IMG/VR virus record: IMGVR_UViG_2563366844_000002
Location: 1-14,106 of that record
Source of the DNA: a virus
Taxonomy: Duplodnaviria > Heunggongvirae > Uroviricota > Caudoviricetes
Length of the DNA stretch: 14,106 nucleotides
Reading direction: 5' to 3' (one strand)
In this document: positions 566-11,139 of the stretch, piece by piece
Layout: the number at the start of each line of letters is the position of its first letter
Numbering within the stretch: the first letter of the stretch is position 1
Notes under the pieces: model-generated
What the model saw: the letters and a program-made list of their open reading frames with translations, nothing else
Databases searched by the model: none
Told to the model about the DNA's origin: nothing
Program-made: the position numbers and the translations under genes

Positions 566-856
566 CTACCGCCGCAACCGTTCCGGCTTCTTCCACTGGT
601 AAGTATTTTTCGCGCTCTCCCTCCGTTGTTGAGAACGGCGACGGTATGCCAGCAACTCAAGAACTCTGGTTCGTATGTTGCGCATATCCACGCCGTTAAG
701 CTCAATACCGTCACGGCGCATTACCTCAGCCACCACACGCGTGTAATTTTCGGCTATCACGCTGTCCGGCTGTGTAGCCTGTTCGTCAGGCTGCTGACTG
801 ATTCCGGTAATGCGGCGAATTATTTTTAGTAGATCAGTTTCAGTCATTCTCGTCAT
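566..856 (-). CDS. Hypothetical 96-aa protein, last gene of the packaging operon
   Basis: Start ATG at 856-854 overlaps the TerL stop at 855-853 (ATGA overlap, translational coupling). No family recognised from the sequence. Confidence 0.5.
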   Translation of the reverse strand: MTRMTETDLLKIIRRITGISQQPDEQATQPDSVIAENYTRVVAEVMRRDGIELNGVDMRNIRTRVLELLAYRRRSQQRRESAKNTYQWKKPERLRR

Positions 857-2514
857 ACCCCATCAAACGCCGCAAGTCGCTCTTTGTGGCTGTCGCTCAT
901 ATCAAATGCAAATTCCTCATGCTCTGCCTGGAATGTGCCAAACGCCATCAGCGCCGCAACGCTCGGGTCTATCTTGTTGGATGATTTTTTCTTGTTCGGC
1001 TTGATATTGGCGTTCGCGTCACTCTGCATCACAACATTACTCATTGACCAGGCCAGCACCGGATCACCACGATGCACAATCACCTTCCGGTTAACAAAAA
1101 CTTCGAACGATTTCGCCGCCGGACTGAAACGAAGGTATGTTTGCGGGAACGGCTCCACCTCTAATCCTGCCCCCTGTAGCTGCGTCCTCAGGTGCGTGGC
1201 GTTCCATGTATCGAAGCCCACCAGCCTGATATTGAAATTCTCTGCATCCGCCATGATGTCATCACGGATACGGTCATAATCAATGCAGTCACCCGGTGTT
1301 GTGCGTATCCAGCCCGCCTTTACCCACTGGCGATAGATGGCGCGGTTTTTATTGGCGGGGTTCTGTAGCTGAAATTCCGGCAGATAGTGACGGGAAACCA
1401 GCATAATCTTTTTACCGACCGGAAAGGCATAGCACACGCTGGAAATATCGCTGGTTGATGATAAGTCCAGCCCCGCGTAGCACTCCTGCCCGTATAAATC
1501 CGCCTCCGCGAACGTTCCGGCGCACTCCGCCCATGCACCGTTACCCATCCACGGCGTAGCCCCCTGACACCAGATATTGAATCGCTTGGTGAGCATTTCC
1601 ACCCACTGCGACGGAATACCCCGCGCTTTCTGGATGGTTGAGGCCAGTTTTTCACGATCGACGGAAACATCGATATTTGGATTCGCCTTTATCCACATCG
1701 CCGGATCGTCAACCTCGCTTTCATCATCCAGCTCGTAAATCAGAACGAACATGGATTCGTTCATCTCTTCACCATCCAGTATCTGACAGCAATAGTCATA
1801 GTGTTGTTTACAGGCTGAAACAACGTTGCTCCCCGATGTGGTGATGGCAAATAACAGCCCCTCCGGACGCGCCCCCATCCCCAGCTCAAGTGCGGAATAA
1901 ACCCCGTTGTCTGGGTGCAGGTGATATTCATCCACAATGGCAAGACTCGGGTTTGTCCCCTCAATGGTTGCCGCTTTTGCTGCCAGTGGCTTTAACAGGC
2001 TGTTGGTTTTCGGGTGTATCACCTTGTGCGCCTGAATATTTACCCGCTTTCGTAACGGTCGGGATAAAAGGCACATCTGACGCGCATCATCAAACACGAT
2101 CCGCGCCTGATCACGACTCACGGCGGCGGTGTAAATATCCTGCTGCCCGTTTTCCATAACCAGAAACCAGTTAGCCAGGATAGCGGCGACCGTGGATTTG
2201 GCATTTTTTCGCGGTACTTCAATGAATGCGCTGGTGTATTTGCGCCGTCCGGTGGCCTTAACCTTAAAGCCCAGGATGCAGGCAAAGGCGAACTGCTGCC
2301 ACGGCTCCAGTTCAATGGGGCTACCGCGCATTGCGCCTTTTACGTGCGGGCACACCCGGGAAAAGGCAATAAACCGCTCCACGACCTCCGGATCGAACGT
2401 GTAAAGGGAGTTTTCAAGGTCAGAAAAATACCGTTTAACGGCCTGTTTCAGTCGTTTACAGGCCGTAATTTTGCCGTTTTTTACGCCTTCTGCGTACTCA
2501 TGCCAGGCGGTCAA
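853..2514 (-). CDS. terL: Phage terminase large subunit
   Basis: 553-aa ORF with the N-terminal ATPase pattern and overall layout typical of phage large terminases. The annotated start is a TTG at 2514-2512, preceded by GAGGAAGAGGA at SD distance and overlapping the TerS 3' end by 17 nt. Confidence 0.85.
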   Translation of the reverse strand: MTAWHEYAEGVKNGKITACKRLKQAVKRYFSDLENSLYTFDPEVVERFIAFSRVCPHVKGAMRGSPIELEPWQQFAFACILGFKVKATGRRKYTSAFIEVPRKNAKSTVAAILANWFLVMENGQQDIYTAAVSRDQARIVFDDARQMCLLSRPLRKRVNIQAHKVIHPKTNSLLKPLAAKAATIEGTNPSLAIVDEYHLHPDNGVYSALELGMGARPEGLLFAITTSGSNVVSACKQHYDYCCQILDGEEMNESMFVLIYELDDESEVDDPAMWIKANPNIDVSVDREKLASTIQKARGIPSQWVEMLTKRFNIWCQGATPWMGNGAWAECAGTFAEADLYGQECYAGLDLSSTSDISSVCYAFPVGKKIMLVSRHYLPEFQLQNPANKNRAIYRQWVKAGWIRTTPGDCIDYDRIRDDIMADAENFNIRLVGFDTWNATHLRTQLQGAGLEVEPFPQTYLRFSPAAKSFEVFVNRKVIVHRGDPVLAWSMSNVVMQSDANANIKPNKKKSSNKIDPSVAALMAFGTFQAEHEEFAFDMSDSHKERLAAFDGV

Positions 2515-2854
2515 GTTCGTCCTCTTCCTCTGTTTCCGGTGGATTTCTGCGACGGCTTACCGGGTCAAAACCCAGCAAAGAAGCCATTTTGATCATTATT
2601 CTTTCTGCGTCAGCCTTTGCGCTCAGTGCGGGGTTTCTGCTCTCGCTGCCCTGACTGTTAACAATGCTGAACCCGCGCGTCGCAAGGTCTTCGACGGCTT
2701 TGCGGTATATGGAGTAGTTAACACAATACAGTTCCAGATTGCTCCAGTCGGCGGGGGTAAGGTCTTCCCGCCCGGAAAGCTGGCGCGATTTTTCCTTCCA
2801 CTGCCTGACCGCGATTTCATCCAGGTAAGCGGGGGTTTTTGGTGGTCTTGCCAT
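2498..2854 (-). CDS. terS: Terminase small subunit (P27-family-like)
   Basis: From the internal ATG at 2854-2852 the product starts MARPPKTPAYLDE and carries the P27-type TerS pattern (LTPADW...LELYC..YS.YRKA...NPA...SLLGFDPVSRRR). The ORF-track extension up to 2995 looks non-coding. Confidence 0.75.
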   Translation of the reverse strand: MARPPKTPAYLDEIAVRQWKEKSRQLSGREDLTPADWSNLELYCVNYSIYRKAVEDLATRGFSIVNSQGSESRNPALSAKADAERIMIKMASLLGFDPVSRRRNPPETEEEDELDRLA

Positions 2855-2905
2855 GTTCTTTTTTCGCCCAATTATTTTCAAAAAAATTACCGTGCACAAA
2901 AATTT

Positions 2906-2965
2906 GAGGGGGCGGTCGGTGTCCGGCAGGGACGGTTTCGTCCTGAAAACCGCCCCCACCCCCTC
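2906..2965. other. GC-rich nested inverted repeat between HNH and terS; candidate cos/packaging site or structured element
   Basis: GGGGGCGGT at 2908-2916 pairs with ACCGCCCCC at 2949-2957. An inner hairpin GGACG-GTTT-CGTCC lies at 2930-2943, and extra GAGGGGG (2906-2912) / CCCCCTC (2959-2965) arms flank it. Sits in the 120-bp gap upstream of terS. Confidence 0.35.
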
Positions 2966-2973
2966 TGACGGCC

Positions 2974-3159
2974 TCACCAGCGATTGCGAAAACATTCCAT
3001 GACCTCGCGGTCACGGTCGGTTAATCGCTTCGCTGTGGTGCGTTTTGTGCGCCCTGTCCTGTTGGCTTTGTGCTCTGTCTCCTGTGTCTTCCATGTGTCA
3101 CGCTGCCTTATCAGTCCACGTATCAGCCTGGTTTGCTCCTGTTCAGTCATCATCGCCAT
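2974..3159 (-). CDS. Possible small basic ORF (about 61 aa) between HNH and terS
   Basis: Internal ATG codons at 3159, 3153 and 3150 lie just upstream of the HNH stop at 3145-3143. Product MAMMTEQEQTRLIRGLIRQRDTW... is highly basic. The upstream part of ORF 2974..3354 overlaps HNH in another frame and is not considered coding. Confidence 0.3.
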   Translation of the reverse strand: MAMMTEQEQTRLIRGLIRQRDTWKTQETEHKANRTGRTKRTTAKRLTDRDREVMECFRNRW

Positions 3160-3583
3160 ACATCCAGTCGTTACGGTGTGCCGCCCGTTCTTCCTGCTCG
3201 CGATACATGCCCGCTTTACGGTTTGCTTTCGTGGCTGGATCTTCTCGTGTCGTCTTACGGTTGTGGCACGTCTGGCACAATGCCTGGTGATTCCACTCAG
3301 GCCAGAAGAGAACATCACCGCCGCCATTGATGGGAATGATGTGATCCACCACAAGAGCTGGCGTATAAATCCCCTTAGCCAGACAACGCACGCATAACGG
3401 GTTTTTGCTCAGGTACAGGGCGCGGTATTTGTCCCACTGTCGGGAATACCCGCGCGCGCGGCGGTGTCCCCGTCTGGCATCCTCTGCACGCCATGCAGCC
3501 CGCCTGTGCTCTTCACACTTGCCGGACTTCACGCGCTTATTACAGCCAGGCTCAGTGCATCGCCTTAATGGTTGCCACGGCAT
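3143..3583 (-). CDS. HNH endonuclease (phage packaging-associated)
   Basis: Cys pairs near the N-terminus (CTEPGCN, CEEH) and an HNH core VVDHIIPINGGGDVLFWPEWNHQALCQTCHNRKT. Located just upstream of terS/terL, as in HK97-like packaging modules. Start overlaps the connector stop by 1 nt. Confidence 0.85.
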   Translation of the reverse strand: MPWQPLRRCTEPGCNKRVKSGKCEEHRRAAWRAEDARRGHRRARGYSRQWDKYRALYLSKNPLCVRCLAKGIYTPALVVDHIIPINGGGDVLFWPEWNHQALCQTCHNRKTTREDPATKANRKAGMYREQEERAAHRNDWMYGDDD

Positions 3584-3885
3584 CAGTACACCCCTACGTC
3601 ACGATAAACTGACCAGAGCGCAGAAATAGCCATAGGCAGTTCCGAGTGCTCCACTGGTGAAACCGCTTCCCGGTTCTCGTACAGGAAAGCGATGTACATC
3701 AGGCAACCAACACGCATTGCCGGGGTAAATTCCAGCCCGTCTTCAAAACGTTTCCCGATATGCTTCTGGCAGGCTTCCAGCGCCGCATCGGTATACATTT
3801 TCAGAAGTTCGCCTTCACCGGATAAATCATCATCAAGTCGAAGATGTGCCCTGACTTCATCAGGTGTAATTCTGGCTTCACTCAT
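3583..3885 (-). CDS. gp6-like head-tail connector protein
   Basis: From the internal ATG at 3885-3883 (preceded by AGGGAGAAAAG) the product starts MSEARITPDEVRAHLRLDDDLSGEGELLKMYTDAALEACQKHIG, which fits the gp6-like connector pattern. The portal stop at 3880-3878 is 2 nt upstream. Confidence 0.7.
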   Translation of the reverse strand: MSEARITPDEVRAHLRLDDDLSGEGELLKMYTDAALEACQKHIGKRFEDGLEFTPAMRVGCLMYIAFLYENREAVSPVEHSELPMAISALWSVYRDVGVY

Positions 3886-5092
3886 CTTTTCTCCCTTTAA
3901 TTTCCACAGTCTGTTTCCATGCCTGGCTGAACTCATCACCACCTTCACGCGGCGGCATACCCTCACGCTCACGGGCTTCGTTCGGATTCATGATCCCGTT
4001 CTTAATCCCTTTCTCATACGTGGCATAACGTTCGGTGGGTGTGGCGCGTAATAAATCGGCTGAATCAAACTCAACCAGATAACGGGTACCAGGTACGGGA
4101 GAAGCCACCAGCAAAGCGGCCTTGATTTGCTGTTCGAAGTTCGCTAGCCACGGGCGCATTGTCATGGTCAGAAACGCGCGGCTTGCCTCGCTGAAATTGC
4201 TGTAGGTGCTGTTGCTGTATTCCTGCAGAAAAATAGGCGATACGTTGAACATGCGGGCGATGTCTTCAATGGAGAAGCGACGGGAGGCCAGCCATTCCGC
4301 ATCCTGGTTACTCATTCCCAGTTGCCTGTAATCCATGCCCCCTTCAAGGATTGGCGTTTTTCCGGCATTTTTCGCCCCCTTGTAGCGTTCCAGAGCATCC
4401 AATGCCTGTTTACCTTTCACGCCGTCCAGCCATTCGCCTGACGTGATAATCCCTGCCGCCATCATGCCATCTTTCATAATGCTGGCTCCGTGACGCTGTT
4501 GAGCAAGGCCAAGCCCCAGCGCCTCACGGCAAATCGTGACGGGGGAACGCCCCAGAAAGCCATCATCCGAGGCATAGCGGAGATGCAAAACTTCTTCCTG
4601 TAAATACGTGCGCACCGTTCCTGTACAGGGTTCGGTGATGGTATAGCGGTATTTGTGTGCGCCTGTGCATTCCGGTACAACACACCCCGGCGCATAAGGA
4701 TGAAGTGATTTTGGCTGCCCGTCCTGCCCCCACTCAATAACCGCATAGGCGTTACCGTTCAGCAGGCAGTGACGCATCATTGTGCGTTTAAACTGGTAAG
4801 GTGTCTGGCACGAATTAGGCTGCTCATTCAGCAGAATATCTACCGGGTGACTGTCCAGCCATTCCCGCGCCTCCCTGCCCTTGTCATTACGTACCAGATA
4901 CAGATAACACGGCATCGTGGCCACCGCCTCAGCGATGACAGAAACCGCATTCATCACTGCAGGCAATGATTCAGCCGTCCCGGCAGAAACATATTCTCCG
5001 GATCCGGTATTCGGTACGCCGGACAGCGCCAGAAAATCATCAATGGACAGGTTACGCTGCTCGCTTTTTTTACGACTAAAAGGCCACCACAT
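3878..5092 (-). CDS. Phage portal protein (HK97-family-like)
   Basis: About 404 aa from the internal ATG at 5092-5090 (MWWPFSRKK...). Size and sequence are portal-like. The ORF-track start at 5182 would overlap the protease gene, so the internal start is preferred; the protease stop at 5096-5094 leaves a 1-nt gap. Confidence 0.85.
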   Translation of the reverse strand: MWWPFSRKKSEQRNLSIDDFLALSGVPNTGSGEYVSAGTAESLPAVMNAVSVIAEAVATMPCYLYLVRNDKGREAREWLDSHPVDILLNEQPNSCQTPYQFKRTMMRHCLLNGNAYAVIEWGQDGQPKSLHPYAPGCVVPECTGAHKYRYTITEPCTGTVRTYLQEEVLHLRYASDDGFLGRSPVTICREALGLGLAQQRHGASIMKDGMMAAGIITSGEWLDGVKGKQALDALERYKGAKNAGKTPILEGGMDYRQLGMSNQDAEWLASRRFSIEDIARMFNVSPIFLQEYSNSTYSNFSEASRAFLTMTMRPWLANFEQQIKAALLVASPVPGTRYLVEFDSADLLRATPTERYATYEKGIKNGIMNPNEAREREGMPPREGGDEFSQAWKQTVEIKGRKDE

Positions 5093-5093
5093 A

Positions 5094-5654
5094 TCACAAC
5101 CCCGCCAGCTCAGACCAGCGATGACGATTATTTCCTGTCGGACGTAATTCAGGGTGCTGTGCAAACAACGAACGGTGGGCAATCTCCACGCCAGATTCTG
5201 GATAAGCAGGCATCGACGTTATTGTGATTTCACGGAGTTCAGCGGCGGTTACGGTACGCAGATACGGTTTTTGCGCGATACTCCACTCCTCGCATAATGC
5301 GCGAAAACCAAAGCTCATTCCTGTAATGTCGCCACGCTCCACCAGCGTAAGCACATCTTTTCCAAGCTGGGTATCCGGCGGTGTCAGTTCAAAACGTAAC
5401 CCGGTGTTATCCTCAGTCAGTACCAGAGTGCCGGATTTGGTGCGCCCCAGCAGTTGGGTATAGTCATGCTCATACAGGCAGCGCACATCATTACCCGTCG
5501 CCAGATAGTCAGCAAAAGCCCCCGGCGTGAACTGTTCGCGGAATTCGTCCCAGATAATTTCTGAAAGGCTGTTCCAGCGAACGGCATACCCCACCAGCTT
5601 TTTATTGCTGGCGGTCAGTTCAGATGTGCGGATTTCAAAATCGGTGTTTTTCAT
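5094..5654 (-). CDS. Prohead maturation protease (HK97-family, S78-like)
   Basis: 186 aa with a GMSFGF-containing core typical of HK97 prohead proteases. Lies between the major capsid and portal genes. Confidence 0.85.
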   Translation of the reverse strand: MKNTDFEIRTSELTASNKKLVGYAVRWNSLSEIIWDEFREQFTPGAFADYLATGNDVRCLYEHDYTQLLGRTKSGTLVLTEDNTGLRFELTPPDTQLGKDVLTLVERGDITGMSFGFRALCEEWSIAQKPYLRTVTAAELREITITSMPAYPESGVEIAHRSLFAQHPELRPTGNNRHRWSELAGL

Positions 5655-5708: not shown

Positions 5709-6878
5709 CTAGCCAGCTTTCATTTCCAGAATTTTGATGGCGTTTGAATCCACCACACCACCGCCCAGATATTTATCCGTGTGGACCTTGTAGAATCCGG
5801 GTTCAGTAATGTTGTCCGGTCGGGTGCGAATCCCTGTTACATGATCAACGATGAAATAACCACGACTGAAATCTCCAACCGCTAGCGGTGCTTTTCCTGT
5901 GCCGATGTCCGGCATGGACTCCAGGCAGTAAACAGGACGACCAAGCAACATATCCGGCGCACCTTCTTTAAGGCTGTCGCGCCAGATATAATCGCCGTTC
6001 TCATTTTTCAGCTTCTGTAGTGCCCCTGCCGTGCCCGAGTTCATCACCCAGACGGCATTTTTGCGGTATTTCGCTTTCAGCTTGTAGAGAATGTCGATCA
6101 GTTCGTCCGCTGTAATGGCGGTTCCACTTGCCGCTACCATTTTTTCAATGGTGCCAAAAGCGCGGGTTTTGTCACTGGTCGCCGCACGGGTGTAAGCCAT
6201 GAAGCCTTTCGGCTTGCCGTTACCGTCGCCATTAACAAAATCATCCTCTTCGGTGCTGGCGAACGTGTCGGCAATTTCGGAGGATAACCAGCCCAGAATA
6301 TCCACCTCTGAAAAATCCAGGATTTCCTGCGTGGTTTTCGGGTAGGCGTAGATCGGATTCAGCTTGATGGTTACGCGTTCAATTTTCGGGGTGTTGGTTT
6401 CACTGCGTGCGCTGCCTTCTGTGCCTCGTCCTACAGTTGCGCCGCCAGTGGAAACCAGTTTCTGAAACTCATTTGATTTTGCGGTCTTCACGGTCGCGAT
6501 CACGCGCATAACACTGTCATCCTGTAGCTGGCGCATGACTTCGCGATCGAGCTCAGGAATTACGGTATATCCACCATCCCTGCCGCTGTCAGTGCTGGTG
6601 GACAGTGATCGCACATCTCCGGTTACGATGTAGTTACGCAATTCATCAGATGATAATTTCTGGATGCCCGTTCCTGGCTTGCTGCGTTCTTCATCAGCCA
6701 CAGACTCGAGGCGGGAAATTTCTGTGTCGAGGGAATCGGCTTTTGCACGCAGTTCATCAAACTGTTTGCCCTCGTCATCGTTCAGGCTGCGGTTTTCACT
6801 GTCGGCTTTTTCCAGCAGGGATCGCATCTGGTTTTTCAGGGCGTTTTTTTGCTGGCGGAGTTCGATTAATTTCTTCAT
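5709..6878 (-). CDS. Major capsid protein (HK97 fold family)
   Basis: 389 aa with an N-terminal coiled-coil/delta-like region (MKKLIELRQQKNALKNQMRSLLEKADSE...) followed by an HK97-type capsid body. It is the first gene of the packaging operon. Confidence 0.9.
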   Translation of the reverse strand: MKKLIELRQQKNALKNQMRSLLEKADSENRSLNDDEGKQFDELRAKADSLDTEISRLESVADEERSKPGTGIQKLSSDELRNYIVTGDVRSLSTSTDSGRDGGYTVIPELDREVMRQLQDDSVMRVIATVKTAKSNEFQKLVSTGGATVGRGTEGSARSETNTPKIERVTIKLNPIYAYPKTTQEILDFSEVDILGWLSSEIADTFASTEEDDFVNGDGNGKPKGFMAYTRAATSDKTRAFGTIEKMVAASGTAITADELIDILYKLKAKYRKNAVWVMNSGTAGALQKLKNENGDYIWRDSLKEGAPDMLLGRPVYCLESMPDIGTGKAPLAVGDFSRGYFIVDHVTGIRTRPDNITEPGFYKVHTDKYLGGGVVDSNAIKILEMKAG

Positions 6879-7902: not shown

Positions 7903-8029
7903 CTGCGGGTTATAATCGCACTTTTGCGGGTTATAACTGCCGTTTTGCGGGTTACGTGCGGGTTATTGATTTCCTTTTTATTCATACAGTTAATTCACTT
8001 ACACACAGGATAACCCGCATAACCCGCAA
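7903..8029. repeat. Origin-like iteron cluster: 4 direct repeats, AT-rich spacer, 2 inverted repeats of TTGCGGGTTA
   Basis: Copies at 7903-7912, 7924-7933 and 7945-7954 (21-bp spacing) and 7956-7965, then a 44-bp AT-rich stretch (7966-8009), then inverted copies TAACCCGCA(T) at 8011-8020 and TAACCCGCAA at 8020-8029. Lies immediately 3' of the primase gene. Confidence 0.75.
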
Positions 8030-11094: not shown

Positions 11095-11139
11095 TGGTAC
11101 GTACCATTTGATTTCAGTTTATAACGATGGTACGTACCA
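11095..11139. promoter_or_regulatory. Two identical 12-bp perfect palindromes TGGTACGTACCA (operator candidates)
   Basis: Copies at 11095-11106 and 11128-11139, centres 33 bp apart. The second abuts the ATG of the plus-strand RHH gene at 11140. AT-rich -10-like hexamers on both strands lie between them (around 11118-11125). Confidence 0.6.

What the first reader, a model, noticed from the sequence alone, without database searches (positions are those of the whole stretch)
2855..2973. Candidate cos/packaging recognition site: GC-rich nested inverted repeat between HNH and terS
The non-coding gap upstream of terS contains a 9-bp perfect inverted repeat (GGGGGCGGT / ACCGCCCCC) enclosing a second hairpin, plus a duplicated CCCCC(A/T)C arm. 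In HK97-like systems the HNH gene and the terminase genes flank cos on the circularised genome, and the HNH-TerS-TerL trio here implies cos-type packaging. The island should therefore have its own cos near terS, which would determine what its terminase packages.
Basis: inference. Interest (0 to 1): 0.5.

Follow-up and report, generated by a model that had tools for sequence, protein, structure and literature searches.

The report
Packaging cut site of a phage satellite
The GC-rich stretch just upstream of the small-terminase gene is very probably the cos site where this capsid-forming phage satellite of E. coli cuts its DNA for packaging, an expected feature that public sequence data now place to the base.

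Summary
The window is a capsid-forming PICI (cf-PICI) of E. coli, with its genes on the minus strand. The 9-bp perfect inverted repeat exists (2908-2916 / 2949-2957), with a nested hairpin and a doubled C5 run, in the 119-nt gap before terS. A 61-aa ORF lies between HNH and the gap.

The cos reading is supported.
- The particle-derived assembly of a related cf-PICI (vB_KppS-Ant, the KpCIDSM30104 element) has its only break in this gap.
- A 15,518-bp metagenomic cf-PICI contig starts at CTCAAATTTTT and ends at GGCAC. It lacks only the 10 nt that relatives carry there.
- Records of phages HK97, EPP-1 and YeP1 break at the same alignment column.

The predicted cohesive end is CGACCGCCCC (window 2909-2918, 3' polarity inferred). 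A conserved G-run lies upstream. A 37-nt block lies downstream (CTCAAATTTTTGTGCACGGTAATTTTTTTGAAAATAA, 2872-2908). That block is more conserved than terS coding sequence and sits where HK97 TerS binds.

The hairpin is not the conserved feature. Only this copy of 136 distinct relatives has a 9-bp arm, and a consensus fold shows almost no covariation. This is a new member of a known kind, of modest interest.

The parts
2855..2973 (-). Whole non-coding gap between the 61-aa ORF and terS, proposed as the cos region of the cf-PICI.
   Evidence: ORF map and Pfam. Same gap in a 99.6%-identical E. coli copy. Same architecture in loci from the genera sampled, chosen by TerS protein only.
2953..2963 (-). 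G-run GGGGGTGGGGG on the sense strand (CCCCCACCCCC on the + strand).
   Evidence: Present in nearly all relatives, and in HK97, YeP1, EPP-1, SfII and AbIPP1. Its role is inferred; a cosQ-like or nuclease-positioning function is possible.
2940..2952 (-). CGGTTTTCAGGAC, conserved within the enterobacterial lineage. Other lineages have TATCAAAAATGAC, which is closer to HK97 GATCAAATCTTCA.
   Evidence: The Ant record ends exactly after CAGGAC.
2919..2939 (-). Variable spacer holding the nested hairpin of this copy. The predicted duplex end of the right genome end is at 2919 (...GGACAC).
   Evidence: The sequence varies freely between lineages. The metagenomic contig and the YeP1 record both stop at the homologous column 71.
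2909..2918 (-). Predicted 10-nt cohesive end, CGACCGCCCC on the sense strand. The 3'-protruding polarity is an inference.
   Evidence: Columns 72-81 of alignment A5 are exactly what is missing from the metagenomic contig and from YeP1. The same columns hold HK97 CGCCGCCAAA. HK97 has a 10-nt 3' overhang (PMC11331095 and PMC9410871).
2908..2909 (-). Predicted sense-strand cut between 2909 and 2908 (ACCGCCCC^CTCAAATT). The other strand would be cut between 2919 and 2918.
   Evidence: The start of the metagenomic contig and the record starts of EPP-1 (PhageTerm-corrected), YeP1 and HK97 all fall at column 82 of A5.
2872..2908 (-). Conserved right block CTCAAATTTTTGTGCACGGTAATTTTTTTGAAAATAA, at +1 to +37 from the predicted cut.
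   Evidence: Mean pairwise identity is 0.886, against 0.755 for terS coding sequence. It is kept from Enterobacterales to Pasteurellales.
2880..2895 (-). GCACGGTAATTTTTTT at +14 to +29, the predicted binding site for the small terminase.
   Evidence: It has the same position and make-up (a GC-rich core followed by a T7 tract) as the mapped HK97 TerS site at +15 to +29, CTAACCCGATTTTTT (PMC11331095). Binding was not tested, and the two TerS families are not detectably related.
2855..2871 (-). Variable leader and ribosome-binding region of terS.
   Evidence: It differs between lineages.
2908..2916 (+).
2949..2957 (+). Right arm (in + strand coordinates) of the 9-bp inverted repeat, ACCGCCCCC.
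   Evidence: Among 136 distinct relatives, only this copy has a 9-bp arm.
2498..2854 (-). terS, small terminase of the P27 family (Pfam Terminase_4).
   Evidence: Pfam E = 1.6e-23; phrog_83.
853..2514 (-). terL, large terminase with ATPase and nuclease domains.
   Evidence: Pfam PF03354 and PF20441.
3143..3583 (-). HNH endonuclease of the packaging module.
   Evidence: Pfam PF01844; phrog_144.
2974..3159 (-). 61-aa ORF of unknown function between HNH and cos.
   Evidence: phrog_3173, E = 6e-27. Annotated as a hypothetical protein in E. coli genomes.

Best explanation
Window 2855-2973 holds the cos site of a capsid-forming PICI.

Proposed mechanism: on concatemeric island DNA, the island's own terminase (P27-family TerS plus TerL), helped by its HNH endonuclease, cuts the two strands 10 nt apart. 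The sense strand is cut between 2909 and 2908, and the other strand between 2919 and 2918. This would give unit-length molecules with the cohesive end CGACCGCCCC, probably 3'-protruding. Packaging then proceeds from CTCAAATTTTT into terS and terL.

The conserved GCACGGTAATTTTTTT at +14 to +29 is the likely TerS docking site. The conserved G-run about 44 nt upstream is a second recognition element.

What is shown: the site's position between HNH and terS; its strong non-coding conservation; fixed ends in this gap in packaged or linear DNA of relatives; and a missing 10-nt stretch.

What is inferred: that this exact element cuts at the homologous bases; the 3' polarity; which protein binds which block; and that the hairpin is incidental.
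For: Identity of the element: it carries capsid, protease, portal, connector, HNH, TerS and TerL genes and no tail genes. It sits next to fis in E. coli MS6198, beside an integrase and a primase. This matches the cf-PICI description (10.1101/2022.09.08.507074).

Fixed ends in relatives:
- The Ant record comes from particle DNA, Nextera XT libraries and assembly. It ends ...TTTTCAGGAC and starts ACGAAAAGG.
- K. pneumoniae ATCC 13883 holds 69 nt between these two points.
- The metagenomic contig of 15,518 bp starts at CTCAAATTTTTACGCACGG and ends ...GCAAGGCAC. Relatives hold exactly CACCCGCCCC between these.

Same register in phages: in alignment A5, the right ends of YeP1 and of the metagenomic contig stop at column 71, and their left ends start at column 82. 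The record breaks of EPP-1 (PhageTerm-corrected) and HK97 lie at 81/82.

HK97 cos is experimentally defined, with a 10-nt 3' overhang and a TerS site at +15 to +29. EPP-1 has an HNH gene and a Terminase_4 TerS flanking its break.

Conservation: the right block has a mean pairwise identity of 0.886, against 0.755 for terS coding sequence. Window against Haemophilus is 0.86 against 0.58.

Cohesive ends are reported for packaged KpCIDSM30104 DNA.
Against: - No end data exist for this exact element. All termini come from relatives (TerS 84-85% identical) or from more distant phages (31-39%).
- The sample type and library method of the metagenomic contig are unknown, as is the method behind the YeP1 record. 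The 3' polarity therefore rests on the HK97 analogy and on the 10 nt being absent rather than duplicated.
- Sequence similarity to HK97 cos is weak. Local alignment z-scores range from 0.3 to 4.3 depending on the relative, and a profile built from 114 gaps did not hit the HK97 junction.
- The cf-PICI TerS is not detectably related to HK97 gp1, so the proposed TerS site is an analogy of position and composition only.
- The conservation figures use loci picked by a regular expression for the block, which inflates them somewhat.
Confidence: 0.85

Rival explanations
1. The inverted repeat acts as a folded structure. It could be an RNA hairpin in the operon transcript that terminates or attenuates transcription before terS. 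It could also be a cruciform or single-strand hairpin that the nucleases need.
For: The sense-strand RNA folds to -39.2 kcal/mol, with z = -2.25 against shuffles. A run UCAAAUUUUU follows the C-run. In the nearest relatives the arm differences are compatible with G-U pairs on the sense strand (GGGGGTGGT against ACCGCCTCC).
Against: - Among 136 distinct relatives, only this copy has a 9-bp arm; most have 5-7 bp, which is just the G and C runs.
- A consensus fold of 38 diverse gaps gives only 7 pairs, -3.35 kcal/mol, a covariation term of -0.2, and one pair with double changes.
- The commonest variant, GGGGGAGG, puts an A opposite a G.
- The loop is 32 nt and the U run begins 5 nt after the stem, so the terminator scan does not call it.
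- Conservation is of sequence blocks, including an AT-rich block that a terminator would not need.
- Rfam gives nothing.
Confidence: 0.07
2. The island packages by a headful (pac) mechanism, and the gap is only an operon spacer with a ribosome-binding leader.
For: None specific. Small terminases of many families serve pac systems.
Against: - Linear assemblies of relatives have unique ends, no terminal redundancy, and sequence missing at the break.
- The module has an HNH gene next to terS, as in HK97-type cos systems.
- Cohesive-end concatemers are reported for a related island.
- The non-coding block is more conserved than the neighbouring gene.
Confidence: 0.03
3. cos lies in the gap, but the cuts fall symmetrically about the centre of the inverted repeat (around 2932, in the nested hairpin). 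This follows the idea that cos nicking sites have twofold symmetry.
For: The repeat has a centre of symmetry there. Several lineages carry a small palindrome at that place, such as GGTGCC-A-GGCACC or CCTC-N5-GAGG.
Against: - The metagenomic contig reads through this centre and ends 8 to 10 nt beyond it, and its other end starts at CTCAAATT.
- The breaks of YeP1, EPP-1 and HK97 agree with that position.
- The centre is the least conserved part of the gap.
Confidence: 0.05

Closest known systems
cos site of coliphage HK97 (HNH-dependent cos packaging, 10-nt 3' overhang)
   Same: - It lies between the HNH gene and terS.
- It has a G-run 40-45 nt before the cut and a C-rich 10 nt just before the cut.
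- A T7 tract lies at +23 to +29 here, against +24 to +30 in HK97.
- terS starts soon after.
- The TerL domains and the HNH are of the same Pfam families here as annotated for HK97-type modules.
   Different: - The small terminase belongs to an unrelated sequence family (P27/Terminase_4 against HK97 gp1, phrog_5601).
- Base-level similarity is weak and uneven.
- The distance from the cut to the terS ATG is 54 nt here (2908 to 2855), against 49 nt in HK97.
- A small ORF sits between HNH and cos.
HNH-terS gaps of temperate phages with a P27-family TerS (Edwardsiella phage EPP-1, Shigella phage SfII, Yersinia phage YeP1, Acinetobacter phage AbIPP1)
   Same: Same TerS family, at 31-40% identity. 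Same order of G-run, spacer, C-rich 10 nt and ATTTTTAYG motif. The record breaks of EPP-1 and YeP1 fall at the same column as the cf-PICI contig ends.
   Different: After the ATTTTTAYGNNCGCG motif, these phages carry AAAAATGAAATTTAA-like sequence. The cf-PICIs instead carry the NAATTTTTTTGAAAATAA block. This difference may set packaging specificity (inference).
cf-PICIs EcCIEDL933 and KpCIDSM30104 (Alqurainy et al., He et al.)
   Same: Same gene order and same family of element. The O157 copy has the same gap, with the predicted cohesive end CGAACGCCTC. The KpCIDSM30104 gap is homologous.
   Different: In the two preprints I could read, cos is assumed or mentioned but not mapped. I could not check the final journal versions.
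lambda cos (cosQ-cosN-cosB)
   Same: Three-part logic: an upstream element, a nicking site, and a downstream small-terminase site next to the terminase genes.
   Different: By general knowledge lambda has a 12-nt 5' overhang (PMC9410871 states 10 nt and 12 nt the other way round). Its TerS (Nu1) family is different, and it needs no HNH. No homology was tested.

Membership tests
HK97-type (HNH-dependent) cos site | Lies between the HNH endonuclease gene and terS on the circular or concatemeric genome | tested here: met
   HNH is 3143-3583, the gap is 2855-2973 and terS is 2498-2854, with a 61-aa ORF in between. HK97 has HNH near its right end and terS at base 50.
HK97-type (HNH-dependent) cos site | Packaged DNA has unique, non-permuted ends at the site | tested here: met
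   Met for relatives only. The Ant particle assembly breaks in the gap, and the metagenomic contig has both ends in the gap. This exact element was not tested.
HK97-type (HNH-dependent) cos site | 10-nt 3'-protruding cohesive ends | tested here: inconclusive
   A length of 10 nt is supported, because exactly 10 columns are missing from two independent linear records. The 3' polarity is inferred from the loss rather than duplication of these bases, and from HK97. Library methods for the contig and for YeP1 are unknown.
HK97-type (HNH-dependent) cos site | Small-terminase binding site just downstream of the cut, with a specific G:C pair next to an A/T tract (HK97 +15 to +29) | not testable with these tools
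   A conserved GCACGGTAATTTTTTT sits at +14 to +29. Binding needs a gel-shift or footprint experiment.
HK97-type (HNH-dependent) cos site | Small terminase homologous to HK97 gp1 | tested here: not met
   BLASTP E = 4.1. hhalign probability is 0.2%. The two proteins fall in different PHROGs, 83 against 5601. The site works like HK97 cos but belongs to the P27-TerS branch.
HK97-type (HNH-dependent) cos site | Cleavage depends on TerS, TerL and HNH together | not testable with these tools
   The preprint mutated the EcCIEDL933 packaging-module genes and measured island transfer (10.1101/2022.09.08.507074, Figure 4 legend). Its discussion says phages of this type need HNH as well as TerS-TerL to start packaging. 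I did not read the per-gene results, and cleavage at this site has not been assayed.
Capsid-forming PICI (cf-PICI) | Island of about 15 kb with integrase, replication genes, capsid, protease, portal, connectors, HNH, TerS and TerL, and no tail genes | tested here: met
   Pfam hits for the eight packaging and capsid proteins. The annotated island next to fis in MS6198 has an integrase and a primase and no tail genes.
Intrinsic (Rho-independent) terminator | GC-rich stem with a short loop (3-8 nt), followed directly by a U run | tested here: not met
   The scan does not call it. The loop is 32 nt, and the U run starts 5 nt after the stem (read).
Known structured RNA family (Rfam) | Match to a curated covariance model | tested here: not met
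   The best hits have E > 1, far below the gathering scores.

The most novel reading that the evidence does not exclude
The cos core (G-run, C-rich 10 nt, ATTTTTAYGC) is one signal shared by cf-PICIs of two bacterial orders and by temperate phages of the SfII, EPP-1, YeP1 and AbIPP1 type. Under this reading, only the block after +20 sets specificity. Island and phage terminases could then sometimes cut or package each other's DNA. This would give cf-PICIs an unrecognised route to interfere with such phages or to be mobilised by them, across genera.
Probability: 0.12. Interest if true: 0.6.

Novelty: new member of a known kind. Interest (0 to 1): 0.38.

Why it matters
cf-PICIs are a recently described and widespread class of satellites that build their own capsids and package only themselves. 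The site their terminase recognises decides what gets into those capsids.

A base-level prediction of the cut, the 10-nt cohesive end and the likely TerS site gives a directly testable target. It could be used for mutagenesis, for making cos plasmids that cf-PICI capsids would carry, and for asking why packaging of the island and of its helper phage is mutually exclusive. At the proposed TerS site, helper-type HK97 cos reads CTAACCCGATTTTTT and the island reads GCACGGTAATTTTTTT.

The finding does not change how cos packaging is understood.

Tried and rejected
- A profile HMM of 114 distinct gaps searched against the HK97 junction and 2000 shuffles gave no hit for HK97. Pairwise local alignments were significant for some relatives only. 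I therefore treat HK97 as an architectural analogue, bridged by YeP1 and EPP-1, not as a proven sequence homologue.
- TerS homology to HK97 gp1 was not found by BLASTP, Pfam, PHROGs or hhalign. No solved structure matches by sequence.
- The metagenome scan (60 loci) gave no further contig ends in the gap.
- Three loci that seemed to end inside the gap (L023, L137, L259) turned out to be cut at storage or earlier-locus boundaries, not at contig ends. I discarded them.
- The first attempt to reach the start of the metagenomic contig, using one terS-leader variant, missed it. The second attempt found it.
- The promoter scan found nothing on the sense strand of the gap. Rfam found nothing.
- The nested hairpin is not conserved. 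The spacer varies, and a consensus fold ignores it.
- I did not predict the TerS structure. It would bear only on the secondary claim about how TerS binds.

Full report
**What the window is.** All relevant genes are on the minus strand. Pfam identifies the following:

| Gene | Window coordinates |
|---|---|
| Major capsid protein | 5709-6878 |
| Prohead protease | 5094-5654 |
| Portal | 3878-5182 |
| Head-tail connector | 3583-3972 |
| HNH endonuclease | 3143-3583 |
| P27-family small terminase (Terminase_4) | 2498-2854 |
| Large terminase | 853-2514 |

A 99.6%-identical copy sits next to fis in E. coli MS6198. It has an integrase and a primase and no tail genes. This is the gene set of a capsid-forming PICI as described for EcCIEDL933 (10.1101/2022.09.08.507074). 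Matches at 84% identity or more were listed in 500 of 5426 complete E. coli genomes.

**The observation.**
- The 9-bp perfect inverted repeat is at 2908-2916 and 2949-2957.
- The nested hairpin (2930-2943) and the doubled C5 run (2953-2965) are there too.
- The gap is 2855-2973. A 61-aa ORF of unknown function (2974-3159, phrog_3173), not HNH, borders it upstream.
- A 9-bp perfect repeat arises in 3-7% of dinucleotide shuffles of the region, because of its G and C runs. The repeat alone is therefore weak evidence.

**Ends of packaged DNA in relatives.**
- The phage collection holds LR881103, 'vB_KppS-Ant', a 16.5-kb linear record with the same gene set.
- It was assembled from particle DNA of a K. 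pneumoniae DSM 30104 lysate, using Nextera XT libraries (PMC8006926). It is therefore the packaged form of the cf-PICI of that strain, the element studied as KpCIDSM30104 by He et al.
- The record ends ...GGTTTTCAGGAC and starts ACGAAAAGG..., 22 nt before terS.
- The chromosome of the same strain (ATCC 13883) has both flanks exactly, with 69 further bases between them.
- The only break of this particle-derived assembly thus lies in the gap, and sequence is lost on both sides. This is expected for a linear molecule with fixed ends in a transposase library.
- He et al. also report that packaged DNA of this island re-anneals into concatemers through cohesive ends (10.1101/2025.02.11.637232). Neither preprint maps the site.

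**Comparison with phages of known ends.**
- HK97 has an experimentally defined cos with a 10-nt 3' overhang. Its TerS site lies at +15 to +29, CTAACCCGATTTTTT (PMC11331095 and PMC9410871).
- The joined HK97 ends show the same order of elements as the gap here: a G-run, about 30 nt, a C-rich stretch, the cut, a T7 tract, then terS.
- Base-level similarity is uneven (z from 0.3 to 4.3; no profile hit). The two small terminases are unrelated in sequence.
- Phages whose small terminase is of the P27 family bridge the two. EPP-1, SfII, YeP1 and AbIPP1 all have this architecture between HNH and terS.
- The EPP-1 record was corrected with PhageTerm (PMC11043334). It breaks at ...CTGCCCGCCTC|CCCCAATTTTTATG.
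- The YeP1 record breaks at ...CCTACCGTAC|GTCAGATTTTTATG.
- From these and from HK97 I predicted the cut here as ACCGCCCC^CTCAAATT, between 2909 and 2908. I wrote this down.

**The test of that prediction.**
- One IMG/VR contig, IMGVR_UViG_3300022664_000095 (15,518 bp), had a true contig end 21 nt after CAGGAC.
- I then fetched its other end. It starts CTCAAATTTTTACGCACGGTGATTTTTTTGAAAATAAAACAGACAGG... and runs into terS. It ends ...GCAAGGCAC.
- Relatives carry exactly ten bases, CACCCGCCCC, between these two points.
- In one alignment (A5) the right ends of this contig and of YeP1 stop at the same column (71). Their left ends start at the same column (82). The breaks of EPP-1 and HK97 fall at 81/82.
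- Columns 72-81 read CGACCGCCCC in the window and CGCCGCCAAA in HK97.
- A whole-island linear contig that lacks just these ten bases is what an overhang lost in library preparation would give. The 3' polarity is an inference.

**Anatomy in window coordinates (sense strand is minus).**

| Coordinates | Element |
|---|---|
| 2963-2953 | G-run |
| 2952-2940 | CGGTTTTCAGGAC |
| 2939-2919 | Variable spacer |
| 2918-2909 | Cohesive end |
| 2909^2908 | Cut on the sense strand |
| 2908-2872 | Conserved block |
| 2895-2880 | GCACGGTAATTTTTTT within that block, +14 to +29 |
| 2871-2855 | terS leader |

**Conservation.**
- Loci chosen only by TerS protein similarity came from Klebsiella, Citrobacter, Aeromonas, Serratia, Xenorhabdus, Photorhabdus, Erwinia, Gilliamella, Haemophilus and other genera. 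They keep this layout.
- The 37-nt block has a mean pairwise identity of 0.886. The values are 0.755 for the first 240 nt of terS, 0.70 for the spacer and 0.55 further upstream.
- Window against Haemophilus is 0.86 for the block and 0.58 for terS (the loci were picked by a pattern for the block, so the figures are somewhat inflated).

**Is the hairpin the functional unit?** Probably not.
- Of 136 distinct gap sequences, only the window has a 9-bp arm. The rest have 4-8 bp, mostly 5-7, which is the G and C runs. In the window, a single base (C in GGGGGCGGT, where relatives have T or A) makes the arm perfect.
- A consensus fold of 38 diverse gaps finds 7 pairs, -3.35 kcal/mol, and almost no covariation.
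- The single-sequence RNA fold is only moderately better than shuffles (z = -2.25).
- No terminator is called, and no Rfam family matches.
Both matter as sequence.

**Verdict.** It is refined to a base-level prediction, with the emphasis moved from the hairpin to three conserved blocks. This is a new member of a known kind: an HNH-dependent cos site of the P27-TerS branch, in a known satellite family. The main limits are that no end data exist for this exact element, that polarity and protein contacts are inferred, and that I could not read the final journal versions of the cf-PICI papers.

Noticed in passing
window 2974-3159 (-): A 61-aa ORF overlaps the HNH stop codon and ends just before cos. 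It matches phrog_3173 (function unknown) and has no Pfam hit. Its C-terminus (...MECFRNRW) is conserved in enterobacterial cf-PICIs, but the ORF is absent from the Xenorhabdus lineage. Phage AbIPP1 also has a small ORF in this position.
   Followed up: partly
L002 (LR881103.1, vB_KppS-Ant), whole record: The source paper describes this record as a filamentous ssDNA prophage. It is in fact the packaged cf-PICI of K. pneumoniae DSM 30104, the element studied as KpCIDSM30104. The record lacks 69 nt around cos.
   Followed up: yes
L305 and L195 (Xenorhabdus hominickii), upstream of terS: The G-run is expanded to five GGGGTA units. The copy in L338 of the same species lacks the AATTTTTACGCACGG block, which may mean a decayed cos.
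   Followed up: no
L349 240-393 (YeP1 right end) against L129 (HK97 right end): The 60-70 nt before the cut are clearly alike in YeP1 and HK97 (AAATGAGAAT.AAT..CATCA..GGG.GGGGGGGATC.AATCT), although their small terminases belong to different families. This suggests the two halves of cos can be exchanged.
   Followed up: partly
window 11095-11107 / 11127-11139 and 7946-8028: A 13-bp perfect inverted repeat, and a cluster of overlapping 9-bp inverted repeats. The window has 20 such seeds against 3.1 expected from shuffles.
   Followed up: no
window 2498-2995 (-): The mechanical ORF list extends terS to 165 aa across the whole gap. Homologues and RefSeq annotation start it at the ATG at 2854.
   Followed up: yes
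window 2848-2875 (+): A promoter-like match (TTGCCA, 16 nt, AATTAT) points away from terS. One match against 0.9 expected, so it is probably chance.
   Followed up: no
L006 (E. coli O157:H7 F6294), gap before terS: The O157:H7 copy (strain F6294, the serotype of EDL933) has the same layout, with the predicted cohesive end CGAACGCCTC and a T6 tract instead of T7.
   Followed up: partly
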